DNA from: a virus
Lineage: Duplodnaviria; Heunggongvirae; Uroviricota; Caudoviricetes
Length of the DNA stretch: 18,768 bases
Virus record (IMG/VR): IMGVR_UViG_2718217897_000009
Location: 1-18,768 of that record
Direction: 5' to 3' (one strand)
The notes beneath the pieces were generated by a model. The model saw nothing but the letters and a program-made list of their open reading frames with translations, did not search any database and was not told the DNA's origin. The translations under genes and the position numbers were made by a program. This document shows, one piece after another, positions 4,408-18,768 of this stretch. Each line of letters starts with the position of its first letter. Position 1 is the stretch's first letter.

Positions 4408-4411
4408 ACCA

Positions 4412-4809: not shown

Positions 4810-5652
4810 TCATGATGAAATTGCCGAAGTTTTTTTATCGTGCTGAAGTACCGCAAATGCCATTAAAACCTCAAGAGAATAGCGACGATAATACTTAACA
4901 AAACCATAATAAAATACTCGGGATGCAGCAATACAAAACAAGAGAAGAAAACAAAAAGGTAACAGCCTGATATTTATATCTATTAAAAAGGATAGAAGGA
5001 ACAGGAACATAAGCAACCAGACTGAAGCGAGAAAAACAAATGTAATGTTTCTACAAAAACCATACAAAGCAACATAGTTTTGCATTTTCACCTGATGATT
5101 TTTAGAATGTTCATACACATAATGATAAGCAAGGCGAAAAAGATCGCCCCTCAAGCCCTTACGTCGATATAGCGTAGATACAGAAAAAACATTTATATAA
5201 CCATCTCGTATTTGCGGCCAAAAGACTTTAATAAGTATAGAATGCAGTGTGGTTTTATGATGTTCTGCTTTATCAAAAGCTGATACAGGAAGTAAAAAAA
5301 CTCCACGGATAAAATTAACTATACTGAACTTAGTATTATGTCGTTTTATTTTCAGGGAGCTTCTTTTAGAAAACAGATAAATTGAAGGATACCCAAGTTT
5401 ACTGTTCATATATTTTTCAATTAAACAGGATGATAGAATAGATATGAAGTGACCTGAAATATATGATAGAACGATTAATACCACATATATAAATACAGTT
5501 ATTATTTCTTTATATTTCAGGATATGGTTAAGAATACCTTCTATATAAACAGGGTTAATTTCAATAGAAAACAAAAAAAGGATAAACAGGAATAACCCAC
5601 CTGGAATTAGATAGCCCAAAAAGTCATAAAATGAAAACGGATTCTGTGTCAC
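4810..5652 (-). CDS. Hypothetical multi-pass membrane protein (280 aa, GTG start), low-GC cargo
   Basis: Long ORF in a markedly AT-rich segment; hydrophobic stretches at about residues 13-30, 50-75, 205-230 and 238-256; no recognised catalytic motif. Confidence 0.6.
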   Translation of the reverse strand: MTQNPFSFYDFLGYLIPGGLFLFILFLFSIEINPVYIEGILNHILKYKEIITVFIYVVLIVLSYISGHFISILSSCLIEKYMNSKLGYPSIYLFSKRSSLKIKRHNTKFSIVNFIRGVFLLPVSAFDKAEHHKTTLHSILIKVFWPQIRDGYINVFSVSTLYRRKGLRGDLFRLAYHYVYEHSKNHQVKMQNYVALYGFCRNITFVFLASVWLLMFLFLLSFLIDINIRLLPFCFLLLFCIAASRVFYYGFVKYYRRYSLEVLMAFAVLQHDKKTSAISS

Positions 5653-5691
5653 ACTTCCCCCTGTGTTACTTGTAAATTAAAGGGTAAAACA

Positions 5692-6189
5692 TTATTTGTT
5701 TTTCCGTAAAGGATTAGCTTTCCATCTTCTTACTAACCATTCGAATTCTTGATATGTAGTATCCGAATTAATGCTTTCTCTGATTGCTTTAATTAATGGC
5801 TCGGCAATATCATATGTCTCTACAACTGTTGTGTAAGATGTTCTTTTTATCATTTTTTCATCATAAATACCTTCACGAATACTTACAGCAACTCGCTCGT
5901 AAAAATTTAAAATATATTGAAATTTTCGACGCTCGGCCATTTCTTCATCTGTTATTGTGCAACCATCACAAGGAAAAACATAAGAACGAAATGATTTGCC
6001 TGAACGATGCACTTGTTTCAGGGTATGCAATGACTCTATATATTGCATATCTTGCCGACTCTCAAAAAGAAAGTTGGCCGTTTGAGTTTTTTTTGCGGTA
6101 CGCACATTGTAGATAATGGTTCCAATGGCAACCAAAACGCCAAGCAGAACAATAGCATTGCTGATGATTTGTAGTGTTATTGGGTTCAT
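5692..6189 (-). CDS. Hypothetical protein with a single N-terminal TM helix (165 aa), low-GC cargo
   Basis: ORF with hydrophobic N-terminus (IISNAIVLLGVLVAIGTIIY) followed by a charged soluble domain; same strand as and 39 bp upstream of the 280-aa gene. Confidence 0.6.
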   Translation of the reverse strand: MNPITLQIISNAIVLLGVLVAIGTIIYNVRTAKKTQTANFLFESRQDMQYIESLHTLKQVHRSGKSFRSYVFPCDGCTITDEEMAERRKFQYILNFYERVAVSIREGIYDEKMIKRTSYTTVVETYDIAEPLIKAIRESINSDTTYQEFEWLVRRWKANPLRKNK

Positions 6190-6225: not shown

Positions 6226-7564
6226 CATAAGCGCTAACTTAAGGGTTGAACCATCTGAAGAATGCGACGCCTCGGTGCCTCGTTAAGACGATGCCTCGCG
6301 TTCTTCAATTGCGTTTTGTAGGCTGTCAGGGATACTGTCCCACGAATGGCCACCTGTAAGCTCCAGATGACCATTTTTGTTATTCTCCACAACGAGTTAG
6401 TTCTTCTTTTCGGATCCGGCACTTCTGGGGGGGAAATCCAGCGATGGCTGGATTATGTCGTCAATTAAAAATGCGGCGAGTAGATTAGCAAATATCCACG
6501 CTTTCGCGAGTTCAGGTTCCTTTGCACGCAAAGCATCCAGGTGCAGCAAACTTTTGAGCCGCTTAAAAGCCAGTTCAATTTGCCATCGCAGACGGTAACA
6601 ATCAGCCACTTGCTCTGCTGAATATTCATCTTCCGGTAATGATGTTAGCAATAGCACATGGCCCGCTGCTTCCAGCGTTTCCGCCTGAACTACTCGTCCT
6701 TTTCGACGATTCTCGCTGAGCAGTCGGGTTTTACTGATTAATGCTTTTTCGGGAGGAAGTGATACGGCAATGAGACGTGCCGGAAAGGGAGCTCCGGCTT
6801 TTTTATTACCTGAATTGCCTATCATTACAGTGGTTTCACCGTTCTTACCGCAATCCAGCCCGCGCAGAAAACCCATCATGTCAAAGCGCATTCCTTCTGC
6901 AGTTAACCAGCGCAATCCTCGCCAGTGAACCCGGACGATATAATCAGCTTCTCCAAAAGCAAGTGAGCGGATACATTCGGGACGCGAACCGAATCCCCGG
7001 TCAGCAATGCGTATCTCGTCTGCCGTTTGCGCAAATCGGTCCAGCCGTTCAGCGTCTCTGCTGTCGGTTAGCTCAAAATCAGTGAACTGACAGGTATGAG
7101 GATCATATCCCATATGTAGTCGCCATTCAGCGCTGCCGCCCCCGGGCGCACTGATTGCTGTTCCATCGACAAGACGCAATCTCTTTCCGCTTGTACAACC
7201 CGTAACTGCGGCGCGTACAGCAAGTGTTTGTGCGGCAAGTATGCCAAACCAGTCGGCGGCATTCCGCAGCCGCTTCAGGAGAGCCACGTCAGATAATGTT
7301 GCAACGTCATGGAGCTGAGCCCATGCAGTGACTTCACGTAATGACATCCCCCCGGGGCCGTAAGCCAGCCCCAGACGTAGCAGAGTTGCAGCATCACGAA
7401 TTTCGCGGCGGCGGGTTAGAGCCCCGGCATTACGTGCCGAAGTATCCAGTTCTTCGGGCTTACCAATATGGGCCAGAATTGCTGACCAGTTATCGTGAGA
7501 GTAATTCATCGGCACGTTAAATCATATCAGGCGTAATACCACAACCCTTAAGTTAGCGCTTATG
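6226..7564 (-). mobile_element. IS186 (IS4 family), 1339 bp, perfect 23-bp terminal inverted repeats CATAAGCGCTAACTTAAGGGTTG
   Basis: Terminal inverted repeats at 6226-6248 and 7542-7564 read directly; the internal ORF matches the IS186 transposase; flanked by an 11-bp direct repeat. Confidence 0.9.
6397..7509 (-). CDS. IS186 transposase (DDE, IS4 family), 370 aa
   Basis: Translation MNYSHDNWSAILAHIGKPEELDTSARNAGALTRRREIRDAATLLRLGLAYGPGG... matches IS186 transposase over its full length as I remember it; the ORF track starts two codons earlier (MPMNY). Confidence 0.9.
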   Translation of the reverse strand: MNYSHDNWSAILAHIGKPEELDTSARNAGALTRRREIRDAATLLRLGLAYGPGGMSLREVTAWAQLHDVATLSDVALLKRLRNAADWFGILAAQTLAVRAAVTGCTSGKRLRLVDGTAISAPGGGSAEWRLHMGYDPHTCQFTDFELTDSRDAERLDRFAQTADEIRIADRGFGSRPECIRSLAFGEADYIVRVHWRGLRWLTAEGMRFDMMGFLRGLDCGKNGETTVMIGNSGNKKAGAPFPARLIAVSLPPEKALISKTRLLSENRRKGRVVQAETLEAAGHVLLLTSLPEDEYSAEQVADCYRLRWQIELAFKRLKSLLHLDALRAKEPELAKAWIFANLLAAFLIDDIIQPSLDFPPRSAGSEKKN

Positions 7565-8075: not shown

Positions 8076-8099
8076 GCTGGTGAGTCGGGGCATAAATTT
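8076..8099. other. Near-perfect palindrome CGGGGCATAAA-TT-TTTATGCCCCG about 37 bp downstream of the portal stop
   Basis: Read directly; 11-bp arms; no adjacent T-tract on the minus strand. Confidence 0.4.
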
Positions 8100-8135
8100 T
8101 TATGCCCCGGAGAAGCAGCAGACAAGCGGAGCGCG

Positions 8136-9185
8136 TCAGGATATGGGCGGGGTATCCAGCAGTGCGTAAGGGTTAAAACGGATCACCTCTTCGCCCAGCC
8201 AGTCATTAACGTGCTTCATCGCCTCCATCACCGGCATCAGTTCGTTGATCGCAAACACTCTGGCCGCCTTCTCCACATCACCAAAAGAACCCTGCCCGCT
8301 GGGCATTGCGCCCATCAGTTGTGGTGGTACACGGTGAGCGGCCAGCACATCATCACGGGAGGCCGCCTTGACGTTCATGAACTCATCCCGGGCGGTGATC
8401 TGCTGGAATGGCAGGATTTGCACACCGTCCTTCCCGCCGTTCGGTGCCTGGAGTAGCAGGTTCTTGAATGCCCCACCGCCTCTTGCGCCCTGCAACGCTC
8501 TTTCGAGAGCCTGCATACTTTCGCGATCAACCTGTGCTGCCCCCACGTAAATGATGCAGCCTGCATGTGAACCGTTGTCATAGTAGAGTTTGCGGAAGCG
8601 ATCTGCCGAGTGCGACAGACTGGCAGACAACAGGCCACCGAGATATTCCGGCATTCCGTACATCTCCTGGTTGATGTCGGGGTTCAGCACATGGCAGACG
8701 CGCCCCTGACGGAACTCGTGGTCCTGCTCCCCCGTCTGCACAAACCAGTACACATCCGGCTCAACACCACGACGGACGTATTTTGCCAGCGCGTGCCGTA
8801 GTTCCAGTTTTCCGCCCAGCCTGTTGGTGCGCAGTTCAAGAAACGCATTCCCGAAGACAAACCAGTCCAGCGCAAAGGCGGAGAACGCCTGCCGGGAGAG
8901 CAGCCGGTGCGGAATGAAGCAGCCCAGTATGGCATTCCGCTTGAAGTACAGCGCCGACTGGTGCCACGAGGTCTGCCGGGATGCCCGCGCCAGTCCGTAC
9001 CAGTCAACGGGCGTTTCGTAGTATCTGCCGTTACTCAGGCAGTATGCGTTATCCAGCAGGTCGAGTGCGTGCGCATCGTAAGGGCCGTCGAACGAGAAGG
9101 CGCTTAACGACGGCTGGCGGCGCAGTGCCTCTGCCAGCGCCACGCCGTCATCGCGGCGCGAATATTTTCGTTTTTGTTTTTTCAT
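8136..9185 (-). CDS. Phage portal protein (P2 gpQ-like), 349 aa
   Basis: Size and position match P2 Q (344 aa); start ATG overlaps the stop of the upstream terminase ORF (ATGA), as expected for the P-Q arrangement. The family assignment is a recollection-level call. Confidence 0.7.
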   Translation of the reverse strand: MKKQKRKYSRRDDGVALAEALRRQPSLSAFSFDGPYDAHALDLLDNAYCLSNGRYYETPVDWYGLARASRQTSWHQSALYFKRNAILGCFIPHRLLSRQAFSAFALDWFVFGNAFLELRTNRLGGKLELRHALAKYVRRGVEPDVYWFVQTGEQDHEFRQGRVCHVLNPDINQEMYGMPEYLGGLLSASLSHSADRFRKLYYDNGSHAGCIIYVGAAQVDRESMQALERALQGARGGGAFKNLLLQAPNGGKDGVQILPFQQITARDEFMNVKAASRDDVLAAHRVPPQLMGAMPSGQGSFGDVEKAARVFAINELMPVMEAMKHVNDWLGEEVIRFNPYALLDTPPIS

Positions 9186-9751
9186 CAGAACTCAATCACC
9201 CGCATTCCTGTTGCACCGTCCTCATCGCCCAGCGGCTCGTTAATGACGGCAAGCATGGTTGCCCACGCGAGGTCGCCGTGGTTTACGCCGCGTGTGCGGT
9301 CTGTTTCATACGTTATTGCCCCGCCCGCCGTTTTTGCCTTGCGCACAGCGTTGAATGCCCTGACCAGCTCACGTTCGCCCCGGTCATACTCCCAGCGCCC
9401 CGCACGAATAATCTGCAGCATCTTCAGCACAAGCGCGCGTTTGGATGCCAGCGTGAACGTGTACGGCACGGCGGCAGGCCAGAACCGCCGCACTATCTGG
9501 TACACTGCCTCACCGTTACCGCCGGTCACGTCGATACCAATGTGCTGGACGTTGTATTTGTGCGTGAACTGCTCAATCACACGGGCCTGCTCTTCAAATT
9601 CCAGCCCCTGCACCTGCAACGTCTCCACCGTGCGGAATTTGCCGCCCCTGACGGCAGGCGGTACAACAACAGACAGCGCCCCGCTGACGTAGCAGGAAAC
9701 AGGGGGATTTGCCCCTGTTTTTTTGTTCAGAATGCAGCCTTCACCATTCAT
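9185..9751 (-). pseudogene. 5'-truncated terminase large subunit (C-terminal nuclease domain only; ATPase domain missing)
   Basis: 188-aa ORF with terminase-nuclease-like features (IGIDVTGG ... VNHGDLAWATMLAV near the C-terminus) but no ATPase domain. P2 gpP is about 590 aa. The first ~18 codons overlap a hairpin/T-run and a tail-gene remnant, so the annotated start is probably spurious. Confidence 0.55.
9696..9723 (+). terminator. Rho-independent terminator-like hairpin (AAACAGGGG/CCCCTGTTT stem, T7 run)
   Basis: Inverted repeat followed by TTTTTTT on the plus strand. Confidence 0.45.
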
Positions 9752-9850
9752 CTCTAATCGTATTCAGTAATTCGCCCGCAGAAACAAACTAAAATTCATC
9801 CCCCGCATCACGCCACTGAAAGCAGACGGTAAACTCCAGATTTTCAAACC
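9726..9850 (-). pseudogene. Diverged remnant of the 3' end of a gpU-like tail gene
   Basis: About 70% nucleotide similarity to the 3' end of the intact U gene at 10508-10640, including the shared TTCAGAATGCAGCC and CTGAAAGC blocks; the minus-strand translation (..EFTVCFQWRDAGDEF*FVSAGELLN..) parallels the U C-terminus (..EFSISFQRCDEDMRERFQSASAGELLN..) but contains a stop. Confidence 0.4.
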
Positions 9851-10171
9851 AGCGTCAGAAGTATTTAAATGGCACCAGATGTAATATGCAGGCGATTAAT
9901 ATGGTGTGCTTAAAGATCATAAAAGCGGGCAACATTAAAACTCCGGGCTGTGTAAATTACCGCCACTCATAATCAGAGATGAAAACAGAATTAAACTGGC
10001 GGAGTGGATTGTATACATAAAATAAGTTCAGTTGTTGACTTTCACTTCCGTGAATTGATGAAGGTTATTACAATACATCGGTATGATCTCTCCTCCTTAA
10101 AAGGGAGGACTTTTCAGAACGCAGAAATTATTTATAATCCCGTAGTGTTCTATACATGCAAACATTCTTTT

Positions 10172-10195
10172 CCCGCCCCGTGCGGGCTTTTTTTT
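10172..10195 (+). terminator. Terminator-like hairpin (CCCGC/GCGGG stem, T8 run)
   Basis: Read directly; preceded about 35 bp upstream by a perfect TATAAT (10133-10138). Confidence 0.4.
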
Positions 10196-10285
10196 GCCGC
10201 AAAGATACAGTAACAAACAAAATTGTAATCATGGCAATCAAAACACGAGAAACATTTTCAGCAATTGCAATAACAAATTAAAATA

Positions 10286-10315
10286 TTGCAATTGACAATC
10301 CCCGCTTAATATAAT
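10286..10315 (+). promoter_or_regulatory. Sigma70-like promoter (-35 TTGCAA, 18-bp spacer, -10 TATAAT)
   Basis: Hexamers read directly; a terminator lies about 45 bp downstream, giving a predicted transcript of about 60 nt. Confidence 0.35.
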
Positions 10316-10359
10316 CCCTTCCGGAACATAGAACATTAAATCTTCACACAATGCATGTT

Positions 10360-10383
10360 GCCCTCTTTATGAGGGCTTTTTTT
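10360..10383 (+). terminator. Rho-independent terminator (GCCCTC/GAGGGC stem, T7 run)
   Basis: Perfect 6-bp GC-rich stem, 5-nt loop, TTTTTTT. Confidence 0.5.
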
Positions 10384-10401
10384 ATTTCCAGAATATCACC
10401 A

Positions 10402-10430
10402 TTGCCATCATCGGGCGATTTATATATAGT
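10402..10430 (+). promoter_or_regulatory. Sigma70-like promoter (-35 TTGCCA, 17-bp spacer, -10 TATAGT)
   Basis: Hexamers read directly; a terminator lies about 45 bp downstream. Confidence 0.3.
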
Positions 10431-10476
10431 CAGAATGTATTGACAACATTTTGCTTCTTTTCCATGAAGGCCATAA

Positions 10477-10506
10477 GGGAGTGCTTTTTACACTCCCTCT
10501 TTTTTT
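10477..10506 (+). terminator. Rho-independent terminator (GGGAGTG/CACTCCC stem, T7 run) abutting the U stop codon on the opposite strand
   Basis: Perfect 7-bp stem, 7-nt loop, T-run; oriented to stop plus-strand transcription before it runs antisense into the tail operon. Confidence 0.5.
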
Positions 10507-10508
10507 AT

Positions 10509-10967
10509 TCAGAATGCAGCCACAGGCATTTTGTCTTTAAGCGCGTTCAGCAGTTCGCCCGCAGAAGCAGACTGAAACCGCTCTCTCATATCCTCATCAC
10601 ACCGCTGAAAGCTGATGGAAAACTCAATCTTTTTTGCCTTTCCGTAACGATCCAGCTCGGAGCGGGTGGTCTGTAATCCTGTAATCACGTACATTCCGTA
10701 AATCTGCCCCGTGCCATCAATCAGCGGCCAGGGACATCCGGTGTAGGCCTGGGTGTTCAGCAGTGTCAGTGACACCTCACCACCGGTAATTTCCGGGTAC
10801 AACAGACCGGACAGCGTGATCTGATCGTCACCTGCGCCAATATACTGCCAGGCCGCAGAGCGGTTAATGCGCTCATTTTTCACATGTCGCCATGTTTTGC
10901 TCTGCTGGATCTGCTGATGCGGAAGCGTTTTCAGCTCAAACACAAACATGCCAAAAATCATCATCAT
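10509..10967 (-). CDS. Tail protein gpU-like (152 aa)
   Basis: Triple-Met start (MMMIFGMFVFELK...) preceded by AAGGAGA; size and position (immediately after the tape-measure gene) match P2 U. Confidence 0.8.
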   Translation of the reverse strand: MMMIFGMFVFELKTLPHQQIQQSKTWRHVKNERINRSAAWQYIGAGDDQITLSGLLYPEITGGEVSLTLLNTQAYTGCPWPLIDGTGQIYGMYVITGLQTTRSELDRYGKAKKIEFSISFQRCDEDMRERFQSASAGELLNALKDKMPVAAF

Positions 10968-10980
10968 AATTGCGTCTCCT

Positions 10981-13900
10981 TTAGTCCCTGTCGCGGAAGC
11001 TGTTCATGCCTGTACGCGCCTGTCTGCGCATCTCTTCGCGGACGGCCTCACCAACCAGTTTTGCCAGTTCGCGCGGATTCTGTGTGTTGACGTTGTGCAG
11101 ATGTACATGTATCTCACCGGAAAACGCAGCAGCCTGTGGTTGTGGCGTAGCTTCCCTTCTGGCCGCTTCCGGTCGCAACGGGGGCCGGATAGCCTCCGCG
11201 ACGGGAGCGGAAGCCATCACCGCCCCCGTCATACCTTCAGCCACGTTACGCGGCTGCGGCAGTGCGGAGACCTGGCGGGCCACGTTCACAACGGGAGCGG
11301 GGGCACTCACCGCAGGGGTGGGCAGTACACCTGTCAGTCTCTGCCAGAGCATTGTCAGTGCATCCGTCAGCCCTACGCCCGCCGATACCGCCTGCACCGT
11401 CCGGACAACCTGCGGTGCTTTCCACTCGCCGTGAATGATTTCGGGTCCGGGCAGATTTTTGAAAACAATATCGCCGGGACCGACGCGCCTGCGTGTTTCC
11501 TCAAGAAGCCCGCCTGTATTGCTGGCGGTTTTCTGTATCCCCTGCCGGAACCATGCCTCATCCAGCGGGGATTTGCTGCCGGGTTTGCCGACCGGATTGT
11601 CCGCCGTTCCCCTCACCTCTCCGGGAACAGCAGGGGCAGGTTTATTGTCACCGTTGTTTTCCGCTGCATCTGATGACCACGACCATGTTTTCTGCACCAT
11701 TTTTTTCTGTGCAGGATCCCACTCCCACGCAACCGGCGCTTTTTGTGTGGACTGTTTTGCGGCGCTCTCCTGGAGTTTTTGCGTCTCCTTCTGTGCCTCT
11801 TTGATGCCGTCCGGGATGACACCCAGCCACTTCAGCACGGTACCGAGGCCATCAAGGAGCAGCGTCATCGGCCCCAGCACAATGTTCTGAATGACCCACC
11901 CCAGCGTTTTCCCGAACGACTCCCCTGCACTGGTGCATTTGTCGAGCGTCTCTTTTGAGGCGTTTGCAGGTTCAAGCAGGCGGGTGAACCACTCCCACAC
12001 GGCTTTGATGCCGTCACCAATCAGCCCGAACACCGGAGCCAGCGATGCAAAGGCTTCCCGCAGCGGTTGCAGCGCCTCCCACACTCCGGCAAAAAAGCCG
12101 GAAAAAAACGCGCTGATCGGATCCCAGTATTTCCACACCAGAACCGCGCCGCCCACCAGGGCGGCAACAATCAGCCCGACCGGACTGAACAGCGCCCCCA
12201 GTGCGCCACCCAGAACCGACACCGCCCCCGTGACCAGCCCCCACAGCGCAGGCAGCCCCGTCAGGCGCAGTGCCATCGCAGACACAAGCCGGACAGCACC
12301 ACCAATGCCACCGCCCCCCGTCAGCAGCCCCAGTCCCAGTTGCAGTTTTGCCAGCGGCCCCGCAATCAGCCCGAGCGTCAGTGACAGCGCACCGAACGTG
12401 GAAGACAGCGCCAGAACACTCCCGCCGGTCAGCACCAGGACTCTGACCAGCGCCTGATGCTCTCCGGCCCATTCGCGCATCCGGGTCACCCACGCGCTCA
12501 CCGTCTGAACCAGCCCGCGCAAATCCTCGGTCACAGTACCGAAGATGTCCGTGCGTAGCCCTGAGAACGCACCACTCAGCGCCTGAATATCGCCGGAAAG
12601 ATTACCGCGCAGCGTCTGCCCCATGCGGTCTGCCACGCCGCTGACATCACCCAGGTTGTCACGGACATCGGCCAGCGCCTTTAAGAACTGCGGGATCTGG
12701 TCAACGGAGAGGTCTTCAACGGGTGTGCCGAACAGCGCAATGGCCGTGTTCGCCCGCTCTGCCGGGTCACGGATGGCCAGCAGTGCACGGGCGGTCACCT
12801 GCATCGCCTGACGAGCGGTGCTGCCTCCCTGTGCAATGGCAGCAGACACCCGCTCAGCATTCAGGCCGAGAGTCTCATACGCTGAGACACTGGATTTCGA
12901 CATATCCGAACCCCGGATGCTGAACTCCTTCACGGCATCGCCGGTTTTGTCCAGCGCAAACTTGCCCTGCTTTGCCATCTCAACCAGCAGACTCATTGTC
13001 TCGCTGCCGGTGAAGCCCATGTTGCGGAAGTGGGTGGAATACTCGTGCAGAATTTCCGGCAGTTCATCGCGCATTTCAGCGGACATACGCTGCATCCCTG
13101 CCGTCATCAGGTTAGTAGCCTCGTCACTGCTGGCAGCCAGCCCGTTCTTCATCATGATGGCAGCGGCCTGAATGCTCTGCGGCACATCAACACCAAAGAC
13201 GGTCCGCATATCCAGCGCACGACGGCTGATGCGCTCCAGTTCCCGGTCGCCGGTGTCGCCCAGTGCACCGAGCGTACTGCGTACCGCACTCACAGCCTCC
13301 GCAGCACCGGCAAAATCAGCGAGACCGTCAGCCTGTATGTTACGAATAATGTGGGTGTAACGTGCGCCATCCTGTGCGCCTTCCCCCGAACCGGCTGCGA
13401 TGACCGCACCGTGCTGTTCGGACTCCATCGCCGGAGCCATCATACGCTGCGCCGCATACAGGCCGCCTGTACCCGCCGCCATCGCCACAGCCCCTGTGTT
13501 GCGCAGTTTTTCCGCCTGTGCCTTCGCGGCCTCATAGCGGCTCTGTGCCTGCGTCACGCGAGCCAGAGCCTGCCGTTCACGCTCGAGCTGCTCGTTGTAC
13601 TGCTGTGTACGGCGAACGGCACTTTCAATGGTGCGGCTGCTGCCGGAAAGCAGAATGCCGTGTTTGCGCATTTCCCCTGCCGCCGCCTGAAGTTTTTCGC
13701 GTTCGCGCGTGCGCAGCTCGTTCAGGCGCTCAAGCCGCGCGGAGAGTGCCGCCAGCGTTTCACGCTGCTTTTCGGAGAGGATGTTACCGTTCTGCTCTGC
13801 CTTTCGCAGCCCGGCGAGCCTCTGCTCCGCGCGGGCAATCTGTTCGCGGTATTTACTGAGATTTCCGGCGGCACGTTCGAACACCTTCGACTGCCTGTCG

Positions 13901-14067
13901 AGCGTCTGTATGTTGTCCTGCGTCTTCTGAAGGGATTCAGTGAGAGCGCCCACCTGACGGCGGGCGTTTTCGGTCGGGCGTGTCAGCCGGTCAATTGCGC
14001 CAAAGCTGACACGAATATCAAGGGATTTCACTGTTGCGGACTCCGCTACGTTGCGCCGCCCGCTCAC
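10981..14067 (-). CDS. Tail tape measure protein (gpT-like), 1028 aa, GTG start
   Basis: Very long ORF with an N-terminal coiled-coil-like region, a central Gly/Ala/Leu-rich hydrophobic segment and a position between E/E' and U; typical of tape measure proteins. Confidence 0.9.
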   Translation of the reverse strand: MSGRRNVAESATVKSLDIRVSFGAIDRLTRPTENARRQVGALTESLQKTQDNIQTLDRQSKVFERAAGNLSKYREQIARAEQRLAGLRKAEQNGNILSEKQRETLAALSARLERLNELRTREREKLQAAAGEMRKHGILLSGSSRTIESAVRRTQQYNEQLERERQALARVTQAQSRYEAAKAQAEKLRNTGAVAMAAGTGGLYAAQRMMAPAMESEQHGAVIAAGSGEGAQDGARYTHIIRNIQADGLADFAGAAEAVSAVRSTLGALGDTGDRELERISRRALDMRTVFGVDVPQSIQAAAIMMKNGLAASSDEATNLMTAGMQRMSAEMRDELPEILHEYSTHFRNMGFTGSETMSLLVEMAKQGKFALDKTGDAVKEFSIRGSDMSKSSVSAYETLGLNAERVSAAIAQGGSTARQAMQVTARALLAIRDPAERANTAIALFGTPVEDLSVDQIPQFLKALADVRDNLGDVSGVADRMGQTLRGNLSGDIQALSGAFSGLRTDIFGTVTEDLRGLVQTVSAWVTRMREWAGEHQALVRVLVLTGGSVLALSSTFGALSLTLGLIAGPLAKLQLGLGLLTGGGGIGGAVRLVSAMALRLTGLPALWGLVTGAVSVLGGALGALFSPVGLIVAALVGGAVLVWKYWDPISAFFSGFFAGVWEALQPLREAFASLAPVFGLIGDGIKAVWEWFTRLLEPANASKETLDKCTSAGESFGKTLGWVIQNIVLGPMTLLLDGLGTVLKWLGVIPDGIKEAQKETQKLQESAAKQSTQKAPVAWEWDPAQKKMVQKTWSWSSDAAENNGDNKPAPAVPGEVRGTADNPVGKPGSKSPLDEAWFRQGIQKTASNTGGLLEETRRRVGPGDIVFKNLPGPEIIHGEWKAPQVVRTVQAVSAGVGLTDALTMLWQRLTGVLPTPAVSAPAPVVNVARQVSALPQPRNVAEGMTGAVMASAPVAEAIRPPLRPEAARREATPQPQAAAFSGEIHVHLHNVNTQNPRELAKLVGEAVREEMRRQARTGMNSFRDRD

Positions 14068-14598
14068 GCCAGCTCATCACCTCGACGAGAGGCATTGAGA
14101 ATATCCCGCCGGGCGACCAGTTAAACACGACTGCTATATCGGCGACCAGTTCTTCAACGTTGTCGAACTTCGCCAGCGTGATTACGCTTCCATCACCGCC
14201 ACGGACGGTTTCGCAGACTCCGTGGGAGCCAAAAAATTCGCCACCAGAGTTGCCAGCGCCACGAAATCACCGGTGGACAGTGACTGAATTTCTGCCAGCT
14301 TCAGGCGTGGTGCGGTCACGCGCGAAAGCAGCGTCATCATCGGGTCCGTTTTGAGGTTCAGCACCTCAATCAGAGACAGCCCGCGCAACGAGCCTGCCTG
14401 GCGGATTTCCTCGCCAATCTCCACATAGTCAATAACGCGTTCGCCACGCACCACCGGGCAGGATAACTGCACACCCGTTTTTTCCTCTGCGGCTTCTGCG
14501 TTATCCACGGTGTTTTCCTCTGCCACATCGATGTTTTCAGTGGTGGTGTCACCTGCGACGATTTCGCTGTTCATGATGTCATCTTTCTTTGCTGCCAT
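14018..14598 (-). CDS. gpE+E' fusion produced by programmed -1 frameshift at T TTT TTG (14230-14236); extension ends at TGA 14018-14020, overlapping the tape-measure start
   Basis: The -1 frame after the slippery site is open for about 70 codons (FFGSHGVCETVRGGDGSVITLAKFDNVEELVADIAVVFNWSPGGIFSMPLVEVMSWRERAAQRSGVRNSEIP) and terminates inside the start of T, the geometry known for P2 E/E'. Confidence 0.55.
14182..14598 (-). CDS. Tail assembly chaperone gpE-like (zero-frame product, 138 aa)
   Basis: ORF between the tube and tape-measure genes with a GGAG RBS; contains the conserved slippery heptamer near its 3' end. Confidence 0.75.
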   Translation of the reverse strand: MAAKKDDIMNSEIVAGDTTTENIDVAEENTVDNAEAAEEKTGVQLSCPVVRGERVIDYVEIGEEIRQAGSLRGLSLIEVLNLKTDPMMTLLSRVTAPRLKLAEIQSLSTGDFVALATLVANFLAPTESAKPSVAVMEA

Positions 14599-14613
14599 TT
14601 TTCTTTCTCCTGT

Positions 14614-14632
14614 GGCGGCACAATGTGCCGCC
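14614..14632. other. Perfect 19-bp palindrome GGCGGCACA-A-TGTGCCGCC in the FII-E intergenic region
   Basis: Read directly; no T-tract; possible mRNA stem-loop modulating expression between tube and chaperone genes. Confidence 0.4.
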
Positions 14633-14644
14633 CTGTTAATGCTG

Positions 14645-15160
14645 TCAGTTCAGACCGAGCGCCGAACTCACGCGGTCACCAAAGACGTTCTGGCCGTCTT
14701 TTTTGTAGATGAAGTTCAGCAGGTCGATTTCTGTCACATCGCTGTCATCCACCGACTCCTTGTAGTAGGTGTTTTTGACGGCGAAGGTGTACTGTGTGGT
14801 GTCGCCCTGTTTGGTTTCGCCACGGTCGATTTCCGTGATGCGTCCGCGCATCTCCACCTCAAGGATCTGACTTTCCTCACCATCGGTGAACAGCTCACCC
14901 ACAAAGCGCAGCGCCACTTCGTTAATGTCAGTGGCGTATTCCTGGAGCAACTCTTTTTCAACACCGCCGGTGGTGAATGAGGCATCCAGTGCGCCGTCAT
15001 CCAGTCCGAGGTCAATATACACCGCACCCAGCATCCCGCCACCGCGATAGGCTTCGGTTTTTCGGGTCAGTTTAGGCAGAGTGACGCCTGTCACCGTGCC
15101 GATTTTGTTTTTGCCGTTCACAAACAGCGTGAACTGGCGAACGTAACGTGGTACAGCCAT
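14645..15160 (-). CDS. Tail tube protein gpFII-like (171 aa)
   Basis: Translation MAVPRYVRQFTLFVNGKNKIGTVTGVTLPKLTRKTEAYRGGGM...VDLGLDD resembles P2 FII; GGGAGGTG RBS; start abuts the FI stop. Confidence 0.9.
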   Translation of the reverse strand: MAVPRYVRQFTLFVNGKNKIGTVTGVTLPKLTRKTEAYRGGGMLGAVYIDLGLDDGALDASFTTGGVEKELLQEYATDINEVALRFVGELFTDGEESQILEVEMRGRITEIDRGETKQGDTTQYTFAVKNTYYKESVDDSDVTEIDLLNFIYKKDGQNVFGDRVSSALGLN

Positions 15161-16342
15161 TTACGCACCTCCCAGCGTTGCAAAAGCGGAGTCGAAATAC
15201 TCATCCGTGAAGGTCTGGTACAGCGTCAGGTCTTCCATCGGCGGCACTGATGTGTACTTGTAGCGGATACGCACGCGCCCCTGACGTAAATCCGTCGTGC
15301 CGTTGTCCAGCACGTCATACCAGCACTCCGCACCGATAAGTTTTCCGGCGGTGACCAGGGCATTGAGTTTTGCGCGGATGGCGCTAATCACGTCCTTCAC
15401 GTTCGCCGGGGTCAGCGGTTCGTCAATGGTTTCGAACTGCGCCTCAGCGATGGTATCTGCCAGAATCTGCGCTGTGCGCGTGTACACCTCAAAGATGTAG
15501 TCGCTGGTTTCGGCAGTACGGTTCCCCCAGAAGCGGAAGCCGTTACGGCGAATAATCGTGGTGATTTCCTTGTTGTTCAGGTTGTTCGCATCACTGTCTT
15601 CAGCCTGCAACGACCAGAACACCTGCTGCGACATACCGAGCACATTTTTCAGCGCCACGTTGGACAGTGACTTGTGCCAGCCCTGCTCACTGTCAATCCG
15701 CGCACGCAACCCGCACGCATACGCCGCAGCCGGAAATGTTTCGTTATTTCCGCTCACCGGGTTGTAGGCAATGAAGTCAGGCCACAGCAGCATCAGCTCA
15801 CGCGCGGAGAACTTAGCGCGGTAAGTGATTGCCTCCGCCATCGTGCCACAGCCGTTACATCCGGCGTACACAAAGGCGCGGAGCTTGTCCGCAATGACGC
15901 ACAGGGCAGATGTGACAGCTTCGGTATCAAGGCCGGGAGCCGCCAGAATACGCGGGCGGTAACCAATGCTCTCGTCCTGTTCGGCAACCAGCAGCGCATA
16001 CATACCCGTATAGCTGCCGTCAGCCTGCGAACCACCGATGACAAGCTGGTCCTGTGTCTCACCTTCCTCTCCGGCTTCTGCCACACGCACCACGATAACC
16101 TTCGGGCTGGTCTGGTCGGAAATCGCCTTGAGCGTTTTGTACAGCGTGCCTGTTGTGCCTGCCTTACCCAGCACATTCGCCACGCGGGTGATCAATACGG
16201 GCCTGTTTAACGGGAACGCGTCGCTGTCTGCATCGTCCGCCGTGGCCACGATACCGATGACACTGGAATCAATGTCATTAATCGCGGTCACGAGGTCGGT
16301 GTTTTCTTTGACGCGTGCGCCGTGAAAGCGTGTTTCACTCAT
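15161..16342 (-). CDS. Contractile tail sheath protein gpFI-like (393 aa)
   Basis: Translation MSETRFHGARV...PLNRPVLIT...KLRAFVYA...ELMLLWPDF...QGWHKSLSNV...IRRNGFRFWGNRT...YTRTAQ resembles P2 FI; start chosen at the internal ATG preceded by AGGAGG. Confidence 0.9.
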   Translation of the reverse strand: MSETRFHGARVKENTDLVTAINDIDSSVIGIVATADDADSDAFPLNRPVLITRVANVLGKAGTTGTLYKTLKAISDQTSPKVIVVRVAEAGEEGETQDQLVIGGSQADGSYTGMYALLVAEQDESIGYRPRILAAPGLDTEAVTSALCVIADKLRAFVYAGCNGCGTMAEAITYRAKFSARELMLLWPDFIAYNPVSGNNETFPAAAYACGLRARIDSEQGWHKSLSNVALKNVLGMSQQVFWSLQAEDSDANNLNNKEITTIIRRNGFRFWGNRTAETSDYIFEVYTRTAQILADTIAEAQFETIDEPLTPANVKDVISAIRAKLNALVTAGKLIGAECWYDVLDNGTTDLRQGRVRIRYKYTSVPPMEDLTLYQTFTDEYFDSAFATLGGA

Positions 16343-16505
16343 GAGCACCTCCTGGTGTTTTTTCTGTGGCACTATCCTCCCGAAAAACACCCCGACACTC
16401 ACGCGCCGCCCCTTCTCGCCGCTCTCCTACAACATGCGCGGCTCGCGGTGTATTTCGCGTGTGTGGAATGATTTGCAGGACGAAGACACTGACGGAGAAA
16501 GCGGG

Positions 16506-17639
16506 ATGAACCTTTCAGGCATTAACGGATACCTCGCGGGGCTGGCAGAGTGCGTGAAGATACCGGATTTTTCCGTCACAACTGACAACGCGGAAACCGG
16601 AAAAAAAGAGGAAAACGAGGCGCTGACCCGACGGGTCATCTCGCTGGCAATGACCGACAACCGGGGATTTGAAGCAGACCAGTTAACCCTCACGATTGAC
16701 GACTGCGACGGCAGCGTGCGTCTCCCGAAGCGCGGGCAGAAGCTGGGGCTGGCGCTGGGCTGGAAAGGTGAGGCGCTGACGGACAAGGGAGCCTTCATCG
16801 TTGACGAGGTGACACACGAGGGACCGCCGGACAGACTCACCATTACGGCCAGCAGCGCAGACTTCCGCCAGGAGTTCAACGTGAAGCGTGAAGTGTCCTG
16901 GCATGACGTGACGGTGGGGCAGGTTGTTTCTGCCATCGCGTACCGTTACGGGCTGAAAGCGCAAATCAGCGCCTCACTGGCAGGGGTGGAAATCGACCAC
17001 GCCGACCAGACGGAGGAAAGCGACATCTCGTTCCTCACGCGTATGGCAGACATGCTGGGAGCAATCGCCACCATCAAGAACGGCGCACTGCTTTTCATCG
17101 TGCCCGGACAGGGGGTGAGCGCCAGCGGAAAGCCGCTGCCCTCATTCGCCATCACCCGCAGCAGCGGTGACAGCCATCACTTCCGCATTGCAGACCGGCA
17201 GGCGTACACGGGGGTACGCGCTTACTGGCTGGACCTGGACTTTGGCAAAAAGAAAAAAGTCAGCGTGAAGAAACGTGGTTCCACCCAAAAAGCAAAAAAG
17301 GAGAAAAGCAGCAGCCGCGAGGGGGATTACATGGAGGGCGCAGACGGCAATGTGTACGTCATGCGCCAAACCTTCAAAAACGAGGAGGCCGCACGCCGTG
17401 CGGCGGCGGCAAAGTGGCAGCAGCTACAGCGCGGTGCGGCTGAGTTCTCCATCACACTGGCACGCGGTCGCCCCGACCTGTACCCCGAAATGCGCGGCAC
17501 GGTATCCGGTTTCAAGAGCGACATCGACGCGGAAGACTGGGTGCTGGCGAAGGTGGAGCACAACATCGACGACAGCGGCTTCACCACGCGGCTTGAGCTG
17601 GAATTAAAAATTCCTGAATGGATAGCACAACAGGAATAA
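16506..17639 (+). CDS. Tail protein gpD-like (late control D family), 377 aa
   Basis: Translation contains ...TDNRGFEADQLTLTIDDCDGSV.LP.RG..L.LALGWKG...SWHD...SFLTR...HHF.IADR.AYTGV...EFSI.LA.GR.D.Y.E..V.VSGFK...W...V.H...SGFTT.LELE, typical of the P2 D family; GGAG RBS 8 nt upstream of ATG 16506. Confidence 0.85.
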   Translation: MNLSGINGYLAGLAECVKIPDFSVTTDNAETGKKEENEALTRRVISLAMTDNRGFEADQLTLTIDDCDGSVRLPKRGQKLGLALGWKGEALTDKGAFIVDEVTHEGPPDRLTITASSADFRQEFNVKREVSWHDVTVGQVVSAIAYRYGLKAQISASLAGVEIDHADQTEESDISFLTRMADMLGAIATIKNGALLFIVPGQGVSASGKPLPSFAITRSSGDSHHFRIADRQAYTGVRAYWLDLDFGKKKKVSVKKRGSTQKAKKEKSSSREGDYMEGADGNVYVMRQTFKNEEAARRAAAAKWQQLQRGAAEFSITLARGRPDLYPEMRGTVSGFKSDIDAEDWVLAKVEHNIDDSGFTTRLELELKIPEWIAQQE

Positions 17640-17689
17640 CCGGAATAAAATCACGACGATTCACCTTCACGAAAAAGGAGGTCTTCGTC

Positions 17690-17947
17690 GTGTCTTTTCC
17701 GTGTCCTTTTTGTGGTGCGAGCACACGCACCCGCACCAGTCGCGCAGCGAACGATACCGGAACTGTCCGCTGGAAACTCTGCCAGTGCAACAACCCGGAA
17801 TGCAGTCTCTCCTTCTCGACGCTGGAGAGTTTCGACAAAATCACTGTTAAACGTTATGGCTGCACTTCACAGGATATTCCGTGGCAAAGCCTGCCTGCGT
17901 CTCACCGGGGTGATACGCAGTTGTCACTGCCGTTTCCGGTAATGTGA
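17690..17947 (+). CDS. ogr: Ogr/Delta-family zinc-finger late transcription activator (GTG start), 85 aa
   Basis: MSFPCPFCGASTRTRTSR...CQCNNPEC has the C-x2-C ... C-x-C-x4-C arrangement and RTSR motif comparable to P2 Ogr (MFHCPLCQHAAHARTSRY...CQNVNC); AGGAGG RBS 8 nt upstream of the GTG. Confidence 0.8.
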   Translation: MSFPCPFCGASTRTRTSRAANDTGTVRWKLCQCNNPECSLSFSTLESFDKITVKRYGCTSQDIPWQSLPASHRGDTQLSLPFPVM

Positions 17948-18003
17948 GCACATGCCTGTTTTTGTTTTTGTTTCTGTATTATTTTGATTCTGGAGTTTTA
18001 TTT

Positions 18004-18768
18004 TTGACCGGATTTCAACAACGCATCGTGACCGAAAACACCCGCCTGTACTGTGGCGACGCACTGGCAGTATTACCGCATATTGAGCCGGACAGTGTGG
18101 ACGCACTCATCACCGACCCGCCCTACAGTTCCGGCGCGACACACAAAGCCGGACGCAGCCTTCAGGGCAGCCACGCAAAATATCTGAACAGTGAGAGCCT
18201 TCACCGCTTTGAGGGCTTCGCAGGTGAAAACATGGATGCCCGTTCATGGGCATACTGGATGCAGTTGTGGATGATGCAGGCGTACCGCGCCGTCAGGCCG
18301 GGAGGGTATGCTCTGGTCTTTTCCGACTGGCGACAATTACCCGCCCTGACCGATGCTTTTCAGGCAAGTGGCTTTACATGGCGCGGCATTGTTGTCTGAA
18401 ACAAAGGAAGAGCGGCGCGAACGCCTCATGTGGGGTATTTCCGGCATCAGTGCGAATTTATGGTATGGGGCAGCAAAGGCCATCTGGATAAATCCCCGAA
18501 CGGCCCGTTTGACGGCTGTATGTCGTTTCCGGTCAGGCCGCAAAAGAAACTGCATCCGACCGGAAAACCGGAAGCGCTGATGGCAGAGTTGATCAGGACA
18601 GCAGGCGACGGCGGCACAGTCCTTGACCCGTTCATGGGATCGGGAACCACAGGCGTTGCCGCACTGAAAGCGGGCTGCAAATTCATCGGCATCGAGACAA
18701 GCCCGCACTACTTCAGTGTGACTGTTGAGCGACTGCGGCAGGCGCAGTTGATCCCCGCAGCAGCATAA
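18004..18768 (+). pseudogene. Beta-class DNA methyltransferase (DPPY motif IV before FMGSGTTG motif I) interrupted by an in-frame TGA at 18397-18399
   Basis: Two ORF-track segments lie in the same frame separated by a single TGA. Motifs ITDPPYSS (N-terminal part) and DPFMGSGTTG (C-terminal part) are present. Start is uncertain (TTG 18004 with GGAG upstream, or a later GTG). The gene ends at the last base of the window. Confidence 0.65.

What the first reader, a model, noticed from the sequence alone, without database searches (positions are those of the whole stretch)
8136..17947. Non-canonical gene order: tail block FI-FII-E-T-U is inverted relative to D-ogr, and capsid, lysis, baseplate and fibre genes are missing
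In P2 the order is FI-FII-E-T-U-D-ogr on one strand, with Q-P divergent from O-N-M-L. Here Q and the terminase remnant keep their expected orientation and D-ogr theirs, but FI..U lie on the opposite strand with FI adjacent to D (divergent, 163-bp spacer). No O, N, M, L, lysis, V, W, J, I, H or G homologues appear. The pattern fits an inversion with breakpoints in P and at the U/D boundary followed by deletion, leaving a cryptic prophage that retains sheath, tube, tape measure, D and Ogr.
Basis: partly seen in the sequence, partly recalled or inferred. Interest (0 to 1): 0.5.

Follow-up and report, generated by a model that had tools for sequence, protein, structure and literature searches.

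The report
Decayed P2-like prophage, native gene order
This is an ordinary, partly deleted P2-family prophage in the E. coli chromosome. Its "inverted" tail-gene block is the normal layout of a known, widespread group of working phages, not a local rearrangement.

Summary
Q and a 3' remnant of P lie on the minus strand. U-T-E'/E-FII-FI also lie on the minus strand. D-ogr lies on the plus strand, 163 bp from FI. No capsid, lysis, baseplate or fibre genes are present.

E. coli strain 2-1 carries a near-complete prophage at the same glsA/copA site, 99.4-99.5% identical on both sides of the gap. It has a full P gene and O-to-fibre genes, followed by the same minus-strand U..FI block and plus-strand D-ogr.

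The same layout occurs in:
- the phages P88, Chuche, phiT5282H and 3LV2017;
- all 46 phage records whose D is at least 60% identical;
- 14 Enterobacterales species genomes;
- many E. coli genomes, including an O157:H7 cryptic prophage.

P2 and two distant relatives keep U-D contiguous.

So no inversion breakpoint lies in P. One 14.27-kb deletion (junction at 9685/9686) removed P(5')-to-fibre. Other damage is a 5.5-kb early-region deletion, an IS421 insertion and a methylase nonsense codon. Sister strains have lost T-D as well. Eight complete records share the junction, so it is not an assembly artefact.

Interest is low and the feature is already known.

The parts
1115..1143 (.). attL core (29 bp, TATTAATTTCTTGACCTTCCCCTTGCTGG). 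The second copy (attR) lies about 105 nt beyond the window end, in the copA promoter region.
   Evidence: Longest exact repeat between the glsA-int spacer and the methylase-copA spacer of the 100%-identical record L001.
1211..2227 (-). Phage integrase, intact.
   Evidence: Pfam Int_N + Phage_integrase. 99.7% aa identity to strain 2-1. RefSeq annotation.
2297..2596 (-). HTH protein in the position of the P2 C repressor, intact.
   Evidence: RefSeq annotation. 100% aa identity to strain 2-1. It occupies the same position as C in P2.
2988..3371 (+). Remnant of the replication endonuclease A (residues 820-946 only). The junction of deletion 1 lies at about 2992-2998, with ATACCCG microhomology. 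That deletion removed 5.5 kb of early genes and most of A.
   Evidence: blastn map to L010, junction alignment, tblastn.
3448..4726 (+). ParM/StbB-type partition gene pair, a trait of this lineage.
   Evidence: Pfam StbA_N/ParM_N and Plasmid_stab_B. The pair is also present in strain 2-1, the O157:H7 prophage and Chuche.
4810..6189 (-). AT-rich cargo at the variable locus upstream of Q: a 280-aa protein plus a DUF4760 protein.
   Evidence: Pfam, PADLOC weak Csx27 hit at 1e-5, GC 31-33%. In strain 2-1 and phiT5282H this locus holds an AAA ATPase plus an S8 peptidase instead.
6227..7563 (.). IS421 (IS4 family) insertion with 22-bp terminal inverted repeats and a 13-bp target duplication, GGGAGCAAATCCC.
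   Evidence: Pfam DDE_Tnp_1, RefSeq name, ends and duplication read from the sequence.
8136..9185 (-). Portal gene Q, intact.
   Evidence: Pfam Phage_portal. 100% aa identity to strain 2-1.
9185..9685 (-). Terminase large subunit P, C-terminal remnant (residues 415-580 of 580).
   Evidence: Pfam Terminase_6C, tblastn, RefSeq pseudogene annotation.
9685..9686 (.). Junction of deletion 2. It removed 14.27 kb (L010 15922-30191): the 5' part of P, then O, N, M, L, X, lysis, R, S, V, W, J, I, the fibre genes and a 94-aa ORF. The microhomology is 2 bp (TG).
   Evidence: Alignments and blastn map. The junction is 100% identical in 8 complete records.
9687..10508 (.). AT-rich non-coding stretch native to the lineage. 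It holds a duplicated U 3' end (9713-9844), an 87-nt relic of a fibre/tfa gene junction (9855-9941, minus strand) and four plus-strand terminator hairpins.
   Evidence: Present unchanged in the intact strain 2-1 prophage. Repeats, terminators, fibre-junction similarity. No Rfam family matched.
10509..10967 (-). Tail gene U, intact.
   Evidence: Pfam Phage_P2_GpU. 100% aa identity to strain 2-1.
10981..14031 (-). Tape measure gene T, intact.
   Evidence: Pfam PhageMin_Tail. 100% aa identity over 1016 aa.
14018..14598 (-). E and the overlapping E' frame, the tail chaperone pair made by a -1 frameshift. The E' frame is open from 14266 to 14018.
   Evidence: Frame analysis, RefSeq GpE annotation, P2 E/E' annotation.
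14645..15160 (-). Tail tube gene FII, intact.
   Evidence: Pfam Phage_tube. 99.4% aa identity.
15161..16342 (-). Tail sheath gene FI, intact.
   Evidence: Pfam sheath domains. 99.7% aa identity.
16343..16505 (.). FI/D divergent spacer. It holds one conserved T(G/C)T-N12-ACAACA element at 16414-16434, about 80 bp from the FI start codon and about 83 bp from the D start codon. Inferred to be a bidirectional Ogr-dependent late promoter region.
   Evidence: Alignment of five lineage members. The same element occurs in their P/O spacers. It occurs exactly twice per phage genome. P2's pP and pO share one activator site. The TGT-N12-ACA consensus is given in PMC3931495.
16506..17639 (+). Tail gene D, intact.
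   Evidence: Pfam Phage_GPD. 98.1% aa identity.
17690..17947 (+). ogr, the zinc-finger late activator, intact.
   Evidence: Pfam Ogr_Delta. 97.6% aa identity.
18004..18768 (+). DNA methyltransferase pseudogene (Trp131 changed to a stop codon).
   Evidence: Translation compared with strain 2-1. RefSeq 'internal stop' note.

Best explanation
The window holds a defective prophage of the P2 family (Peduoviridae), integrated between glsA and the copA promoter of E. coli.

It belongs to an Enterobacterales lineage (P88/Xuanwuvirus, phiT5282H/Novemvirus, 3LV2017/Reginaelenavirus, Chuche, PhiSM, SEN4/5 and many prophages). In this lineage the native gene order is Q-P(-), O...fibre(+), U-T-E'/E-FII-FI(-), D-ogr(+). 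The FI..U block is therefore in its normal place and orientation.

The missing genes are explained by one simple 14.27-kb deletion. It runs from inside P to the end of the last gene after the fibre genes and joined the ends at a 2-bp microhomology.

Independent decay events are:
- a 5.5-kb deletion of the early/replication region;
- an IS421 insertion;
- a nonsense codon in the methylase gene.

The element cannot replicate, package DNA, build a baseplate or lyse the cell. The still-intact FI-U, D and ogr genes are recent leftovers.

Inferred, not shown: in this lineage the FI/D spacer works like P2's pP/pO region. A single central Ogr-type activator site would drive late transcription in both directions. 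That is how D and ogr would be expressed once separated from the F operon.
For: Same-site intact relative:
- Window 1-2998, 2988-4557, 7732-9689 and 9685-18768 map collinearly, with no strand switch, onto the strain 2-1 prophage at 95-99.5% identity.
- That prophage has a full P, O-to-fibre genes, then U..FI(-) and D-ogr(+).

Lineage architecture:
- Full gene maps of Chuche, phiT5282H, P88 and 3LV2017 show the same order.
- In all 46 phage records with D at least 60% identical, FI lies adjacent on the opposite strand.
- The same holds in 14 species-representative genomes: Salmonella, Citrobacter, Klebsiella, Raoultella, Edwardsiella, Providencia, Serratia, Trabulsiella and a contig labelled Vagococcus sp. 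(a probable contaminant).
- P2, Methyloversatilis and Roseospira have U-D contiguous.
- P88 and PhiSM form plaques (PMC5285337, PMC6456863).

Deletion:
- Junction alignments.
- No O-to-fibre homologues remain.
- The junction is identical in 8 complete records.

Further decay:
- AST19 lacks window 11170-17682.

Promoter model:
- T(G/C)T-N12-ACAACA is found only in the P/O and FI/D spacers of each phage.
- P2's annotated shared pP/pO activator site lies 56 and 55 nt from the two transcription start sites.
Against: Nothing contradicts the architecture and deletion account.

Weak points:
- No experiment or transcript data exist for the proposed bidirectional promoter.
- The box pattern was derived from the FI/D alignment before being tested on the P/O spacers, and the phages are related to each other.
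- The -10 elements I propose match the consensus at only 4 of 6 positions.
- I found no paper that describes the divergent FI/D order explicitly. It is documented only in deposited, annotated genomes.
- The window's IS421 is in the opposite orientation to all closest complete records. The exact source assembly therefore differs from them at one point, which remains unexplained.
Confidence: 0.93

Rival explanations
1. A canonical P2-order prophage suffered a local inversion in this strain, with breakpoints in P and at the U/D boundary. Deletion of the head, lysis, baseplate and fibre genes followed.
For: Relative to P2 itself, the FI..U block is inverted and P is truncated.
Against: The 99.5%-identical prophage at the same site has an intact P and all O-to-fibre genes, and it already has the same FI..U orientation.

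Both sides of the P break are collinear with that prophage on the same strand. The break is therefore a deletion endpoint, not an inversion endpoint.

The arrangement is shared by functional phages and by many genera.
Confidence: 0.02
2. An assembly artefact or chimera. Two unrelated prophage fragments, Q-P from one and the tail block plus D-ogr from another, were joined by misassembly at 9690-9860 or at 16343-16505.
For: GC content drops sharply to 37-45% between 9600 and 10500. The window's IS421 orientation differs from the reference records.
Against: The 500-bp stretch across the 9685/9686 junction is 100% identical in 8 complete genome records from 4 strains.

The AT-rich stretch sits at the same place in the intact prophage and in about 70 other genomes.

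The FI/D junction is collinear in 26 of 30 evenly sampled records out of 1470 matching E. coli records.
Confidence: 0.01
3. A domesticated remnant kept by selection. One version is a tailocin-like or other contractile device built from FI, FII, E, T, U and D. Another is a retained ogr module that cross-activates late genes of co-resident P2-like prophages or P4-type satellites.
For: FI, FII, E/E', T, U, D and ogr all have intact reading frames. The putative late promoter spacer is intact. E. coli K-12 also keeps ogrK with a D fragment in cryptic prophage PR-X.
Against: No baseplate (V, W, J, I), fibre, tail completion (R, S) or lysis genes remain, so a contractile particle cannot be assembled or released.

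The intact frames are explained by how recent the deletion is: 99.5% DNA identity to the complete prophage.

Sister strains AST19 and EC0026B have deleted T through D, which shows that block is dispensable.

Ogr cross-activation is possible but untested.
Confidence: 0.04

Closest known systems
Near-complete prophage of E. coli strain 2-1 (NZ_CP097198.1, 2335000-2373300), at the same glsA/copA site
   Same: Same attachment site and same gene order and orientation. 99.0-99.5% DNA identity over int-C, Q-P(3') and U...methylase. U, T, E and Q proteins are 100% identical.
   Different: Strain 2-1 retains the early genes, full A, full P, and O through the fibre genes (its H is interrupted by an IS3). 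It has an intact methylase and carries AAA ATPase plus S8 peptidase cargo in place of the window's 280-aa/DUF4760 pair and IS421.
Escherichia phage P88 (Xuanwuvirus), Escherichia phage Chuche, Citrobacter phage PhiSM, Enterobacter phage phiT5282H (Novemvirus), Klebsiella phage 3LV2017 (Reginaelenavirus)
   Same: Same module order: Q-P(-), O..fibre(+), U-T-E-FII-FI(-), D-ogr(+). FI is 69-85% and D 67-72% identical at the protein level. The same T(G/C)T-N12-ACAACA element sits in the P/O and FI/D spacers of the four with full maps.
   Different: These are complete, viable phages. At the DNA level only short stretches match, at about 75%, so the window's prophage is a distinct species and possibly a distinct genus. 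P88 carries a DNA invertase and alternative fibre genes where the window has an AT-rich relic.
Cryptic P2-like prophage of E. coli O157:H7 next to the tRNA-Leu, tRNA-Cys and tRNA-Gly genes (L011). From memory only, this is CP-933T/Sp13.
   Same: Same lineage and the same kind of decay. It has int, early genes, A, ParM/StbB, then an IS3 scar that replaces Q through the fibre genes, then U-T-E'-E-FII-FI(-) divergent from D(+). FI is 83% identical.
   Different: Different integration site. Q and P are lost completely, T is frameshifted, and D is truncated by IS30 with ogr gone. The early region and A are retained.
Bacteriophage P2 (NC_001895)
   Same: Same gene families: Q, P, FI, FII, E/E', T, U, D, ogr, int, a C-like repressor and A. 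Q-P is divergent from O, and the late promoters are Ogr-dependent with a shared pP/pO activator site.
   Different: In P2, FI-FII-E-T-U-D-ogr form one rightward unit and D is the last gene of the F operon. Protein identity to the window is only 42-48%. P2 has no ParM/StbB pair.
E. coli K-12 cryptic prophage PR-X (ogrK plus the yegZ D fragment)
   Same: A P2-family remnant that retains ogr next to D sequence. It shows that ogr-containing relics are a familiar end-state of P2-type prophage decay.
   Different: PR-X is only about 0.6 kb and derives from a canonical P2-type phage. The window's remnant is about 17.8 kb and still has whole tail genes.

Membership tests
P2-family (Peduoviridae) prophage | P2-type portal (Q) and large terminase (P) adjacent on one strand | tested here: met
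   Pfam Phage_portal and Terminase_6C. Collinear with Q-P of strain 2-1 and similar to P2-family phages. P survives only as its C-terminal 166 residues.
P2-family (Peduoviridae) prophage | Contractile tail module FI, FII, E/E' (with -1 frameshift), T, U, D | tested here: met
   Pfam sheath, Phage_tube, PhageMin_Tail, Phage_P2_GpU and Phage_GPD. The E' frame overlaps E with a T-run. 46-48% aa identity to P2 FI, U and D.
P2-family (Peduoviridae) prophage | Ogr/Delta zinc-finger late activator and TGT-N12-ACA-type late promoter elements | tested here: met
   Pfam Ogr_Delta at 1e-11. TCT-N12-ACA element at 16414-16431 in the FI/D spacer, conserved across the lineage. Binding and activation were not tested.
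P2-family (Peduoviridae) prophage | Capsid genes O, N, M, L divergent from Q-P | tested here: not met
   Absent from the window but present in the 99.5%-identical relative. They were lost by deletion, so the window holds a defective member, not a non-member.
Lineage with divergent FI/D (Xuanwuvirus, Novemvirus, Reginaelenavirus and relatives) | U-T-E-FII-FI on the opposite strand to D-ogr, with FI and D start codons facing across a spacer of about 150-200 bp | tested here: met
   Window spacer is 163 bp. The same holds in all 46 phage records with D at least 60% identical and in 14 species genomes.
Lineage with divergent FI/D (Xuanwuvirus, Novemvirus, Reginaelenavirus and relatives) | Membership of one of the named ICTV genera (about 70% genome-wide nucleotide identity; threshold quoted from my own knowledge) | tested here: inconclusive
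   Megablast of 8000-18768 against phage records matched only 7-15% of the query at 70-76% identity. Protein identity to P88 is 84% for FI and 71% for D. Probably a separate genus or species, but no whole-genome intergenomic distance was computed and the prophage is incomplete.
Defective (cryptic) prophage | Bounded by att repeats next to an integrase, but lacking genes essential for replication, packaging, virion assembly and lysis | tested here: met
   29-bp att repeat, int, A reduced to 127 residues, P to 166 residues, and no O-to-fibre or lysis genes.
R-type tailocin (phage-tail-like bacteriocin) | Sheath and tube plus a complete baseplate, fibres and a lysis cassette, without capsid genes | tested here: not met
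   Sheath, tube, tape measure, U and D are present. V, W, J, I, the fibre genes, R, S, holin and endolysin are absent.

The most novel reading that the evidence does not exclude
In this lineage the FI/D spacer may be a bidirectional late promoter built around one shared Ogr-type activator site. It would have arisen when an ancestral inversion of the F operon carried pF next to D, placing ogr downstream of an Ogr-dependent promoter and so creating a positive feedback loop.

In the decayed prophage this self-contained pFI/pD-D-ogr module is still intact. It could trans-activate late genes of co-resident P2-like prophages or P4-type satellites.
Probability: 0.3. Interest if true: 0.25.

Novelty: already known. 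Interest (0 to 1): 0.08.

Why it matters
It matters little beyond correct annotation. The apparently non-canonical order should not be read as a rearrangement or misassembly. It is the standard layout of a large group of P2-family phages in Enterobacterales.

The locus gives a tidy, dated series of prophage decay at a single attachment site:
- near-complete in strain 2-1;
- 14.3 kb deleted in AST205, E100341 and the window;
- a further 6.5 kb deleted in AST19 and EC0026B;
- with or without IS421.

The only mildly useful lead is the inferred shared-activator, bidirectional FI/D late promoter. It would explain how D and ogr are expressed once separated from the F operon.

Tried and rejected
- Exact TGT-N12-ACA in the window: 3 hits, none in the FI/D spacer, and no more than chance. 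The relaxed T(G/C)T form emerged only from the comparative alignment.

- Rfam scans of the whole window at gathering thresholds, and of 9650-10550 at E up to 1: no credible family. The only hit was a Streptococcus sRNA at E = 0.14. I first read the promoter/terminator units at 10100-10500 as possible small-RNA genes. Folding z-scores were -0.9 to -2.75. The repeated hairpin plus TTCAGAA(T/C)GCAG motif and the fibre/tfa junction relic fit recombination scars and relics better. This remains unresolved.

- Literature searches for an explicit description of the divergent FI/D order found none. The Burkholderia P2-like phages in PMC3091744 keep D-U contiguous. The P88 paper (PMC5285337) does not discuss gene order.

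- The ogrK literature search gave nothing useful, so I used the K-12 record annotation instead.

- PADLOC scan of the cargo genes: only a weak Csx27 hit.

- The 93% rather than 100% coverage by the best genome hit looked like a possible difference at the finding. It turned out to be the IS421 orientation only.

Full report
**What is in the window**

The window is E. coli chromosome. It is identical to strain AST205 (NZ_AP043614.1) apart from two SNPs and the orientation of one insertion sequence. It runs from glsA (1-933) to the last gene before copA.

The whole interval from about 1115 onward is a prophage. A 29-bp direct repeat, TATTAATTTCTTGACCTTCCCCTTGCTGG, lies next to the integrase at 1115-1143. 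It recurs just upstream of copA, about 105 nt past the window end.

**Checking the observation**

- portal Q, 8136-9185(-);
- a terminase RNaseH-domain remnant, 9185-9685(-);
- gpU, 10509-10967(-);
- tape measure T, 10981-14031(-);
- E with its overlapping E' frame, 14018-14598(-);
- tube FII, 14645-15160(-);
- sheath FI, 15161-16342(-);
- gpD, 16506-17639(+);
- Ogr, 17690-17947(+).

With the RefSeq start sites, the FI/D spacer is 16343-16505, exactly 163 bp. The P2 record shows FI-FII-E/E'-T-U-D-ogr as one rightward unit, so relative to P2 the FI..U block is indeed inverted.

I ran tblastn of every protein of an intact relative against the window. There was no hit for O, N, M, L, X, holin, lysozyme, lysC, R, S, V, W, J, I, H or fibre.

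**Why the inversion interpretation fails**

E. coli strain 2-1 (NZ_CP097198.1) carries a nearly complete prophage at the same glsA/copA site. Its order is:
- int and a C-like repressor;
- early genes and A;
- ParM/StbB and cargo genes;
- Q(-) and P(-);
- O N M L X, lysis, R S V W J I, H and fibre genes (+);
- U T E' E FII FI (-);
- D, ogr and methylase (+).

The window maps onto it collinearly, with no change of strand:
- window 1-2998 = L010 1-2998 (99.0%);
- window 2988-4557 = L010 8521-10090 (95.2%);
- window 7732-9689 = L010 13967-15924 (99.4%);
- window 9685-18768 = L010 30192-39269 (99.5%).

The FI..U block is therefore already "inverted" in a genome that has a full-length P and the entire head, lysis, baseplate and fibre set. 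The break in P is one end of a plain deletion of L010 15922-30191 (14.27 kb). The other end is the stop codon of a 94-aa ORF that follows the fibre genes. The two ends share only TG. No inversion breakpoint lies in P.

**The arrangement is a lineage trait**

- Complete maps of Escherichia phage Chuche, Enterobacter phage phiT5282H (Novemvirus), Escherichia phage P88 (Xuanwuvirus) and Klebsiella phage 3LV2017 (Reginaelenavirus) all show U-T-E-FII-FI on the strand opposite to D-ogr. FI faces D across a short spacer.
- Comparing tblastn positions of D and FI, all 46 phage records with D at least 60% identical have FI adjacent on the opposite strand. These include PhiSM, PhiR44_2, 500465-2, Xuanwuvirus P884B11, KSP20, SEN4/5, ST16-OXA48phi5.4 and many Klebsiella phages.
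- In a scan of one genome per species, 14 loci have FI(-) immediately upstream of D(+), followed where the contig allows by ogr(+). They are from Salmonella, Citrobacter, Klebsiella (2), Raoultella, Edwardsiella, Providencia (4), Serratia, Trabulsiella and a contig labelled Vagococcus sp. that is probably a contaminant. A fifth Providencia locus held only a D fragment. The two distant hits, Methyloversatilis and Roseospira, have U(+) upstream of D(+), as P2 does.
- The canonical order is therefore most simply ancestral. The divergent order is a derived trait of an Enterobacterales clade. This is an inference by parsimony; no tree was built.
- P88 and PhiSM are inducible, plaque-forming phages (PMC5285337, PMC6456863), so the order is fully functional.
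- Within E. coli, 1470 records match the FI/D junction probe. In an evenly spaced sample of 30 of them, 26 span both gene starts collinearly. These include E2348/69, SE11 and O157:H7.
- The O157:H7 element is itself a decayed copy. An IS3 scar replaces Q through the fibre genes, then comes U-T(frameshifted)-E'-E-FII-FI(-), facing a D gene truncated by IS30.

**Not an artefact**

The 500 bp across the deletion junction are 100% identical over their full length in eight complete records: AST205, AST19, E100341 and five EC0026B derivatives.

**Full decay history relative to the strain 2-1 prophage**

1. Deletion 1 removed L010 2999-8520. This took out the early genes and A residues 1-819, with a junction at a 7-bp ATACCCG microhomology near 2992-2998.
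2. The variable cargo locus between StbB and Q holds a 31-33% GC pair (a 280-aa protein and a DUF4760 protein) in place of an AAA ATPase plus S8 peptidase.
3. IS421 is inserted at 6227-7563 with a 13-bp target duplication. The EC0026B records appear to lack it, because their matched span is 1350 bp shorter.
4. Deletion 2 is the 14.27-kb deletion described above.
5. The methylase gene has Trp131 changed to a stop codon.
6. In AST19 and EC0026B a third deletion removes window 11170-17682, most of T through D, leaving U next to ogr.

The retained U, T, E and Q proteins are 100% identical to those of strain 2-1, and FI and FII are more than 99% identical. The E/E' frameshift arrangement is intact. 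Their integrity therefore reflects how recent the deletion is. Selection need not be invoked, and the third deletion shows the block is dispensable.

**How the layout probably works (inferred)**

I aligned the FI/D spacers of five lineage members. This revealed a conserved T(G/C)T-N12-ACAACA element at window 16414-16434. The same element appears in the P/O spacers of the same phages.

Across the complete phage genomes, the strain 2-1 prophage and the P88 and 3LV2017 loci, the pattern occurs exactly twice. It appears once in each of those two divergent spacers and nowhere else.

In P2, the late promoters share a TGT-N12-ACA consensus (PMC3931495). pP and pO are annotated as sharing one activator site, 56 and 55 nt from their respective start sites. 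In the window the element's centre lies about 80 bp from the FI start codon and about 83 bp from the D start codon. Weak -10-like hexamers lie where starts 55 nt either side would need them: GATAGT on the minus strand at 16371-16376, and TGGAAT at 16464-16469.

I therefore propose that the FI/D spacer is a second bidirectional, Ogr-dependent late promoter region. It would supply D and ogr with the late transcription they receive in P2 as part of the F operon. This is untested.

**Rivals**

- A strain-specific inversion is refuted by the intact same-site relative.
- A misassembly or chimera is refuted by the independent assemblies.
- A domesticated tailocin is excluded by the absence of baseplate, fibre, tail-completion and lysis genes.
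- Retention of ogr for cross-activation of other P2-type elements cannot be excluded. It has a precedent in K-12's ogrK/yegZ remnant PR-X, but nothing here requires it.

**Verdict**

The cryptic-prophage conclusion is right. The inversion mechanism is wrong, because the order is the conserved architecture of a known phage lineage. The feature is ordinary and already represented in annotated public genomes, so interest is low.

Noticed in passing
window 6227-7563: IS421 is in the opposite orientation to the otherwise identical AST205 and AST19 records. The difference is an exact inversion of the interior (6249-7541) between the perfect 22-bp terminal inverted repeats, with the same insertion site and the same 13-bp target duplication. 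It could be a real in-place inversion or an assembly orientation error. The EC0026B records seem to lack the IS altogether.
   Followed up: partly
window 9687-10508: An AT-rich (37-45% GC) non-coding stretch between the fibre-side genes and U. It has four plus-strand terminator hairpins, and three of them are followed by a TTCAGAA(T/C)GCAG motif that copies the 3' end of U (the fourth has a looser version). Sigma-70-like promoters sit in front of three short units. No Rfam family matched. The stretch is conserved at 90-95% in about 60 other E. coli genomes. It could hold small RNAs or be stacked recombination scars.
   Followed up: partly
window 9855-9941 (minus strand): An 87-nt stretch is about 80% identical to the tail-fibre/fibre-assembly gene junction of many prophages, a Peduovirus P2 record and Shigella phage SfMu. 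P88 has a DNA invertase and alternative fibre genes at this position. This is probably a relic of an invertible fibre cassette.
   Followed up: partly
window 1115-1143 and L001 30873-30901: The 29-bp att core overlaps the copA promoter, and possibly its CueR operator (from memory). The attR copy retains the full TTGACCTTCCCCTTGCTGGAAGG sequence, so integration appears to leave the copA promoter intact.
   Followed up: no
window 4810-6189: A 31-33% GC cargo pair (a 280-aa protein with a weak Csx27 hit, plus a DUF4760 protein) sits at the variable locus upstream of Q, the position of old/tin in P2. Relatives carry an AAA ATPase plus an S8 peptidase there. It may be an anti-phage defence cargo.
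   Followed up: partly
window 3448-4726: A plasmid-type ParM/StbB partition pair is conserved in this integrating P2-family lineage (strain 2-1, the O157:H7 prophage and Chuche).
   Followed up: no
L008 (AST19) 12467-12673; window 11170-17682: Sister strains AST19 and EC0026B carry the same remnant with a further 6.5-kb deletion. It fuses the 3' end of T to a point 7 nt upstream of ogr. Together with strain 2-1 this gives a stepwise decay series at one locus.
   Followed up: yes
L013 (NZ_JBQPOM010000071.1): A contig labelled Vagococcus sp. WN89Y carries an enterobacterial-type FI/D/ogr module (84% and 70% aa identity). The assembly is probably contaminated or mislabelled.
   Followed up: no
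window 14018-14598: E is 138 aa, compared with 91 aa in P2. The E' frame is open from 14266 and overlaps the 3' end of E at an AAT TTT TTG run, consistent with the conserved P2-type -1 frameshift.
   Followed up: partly
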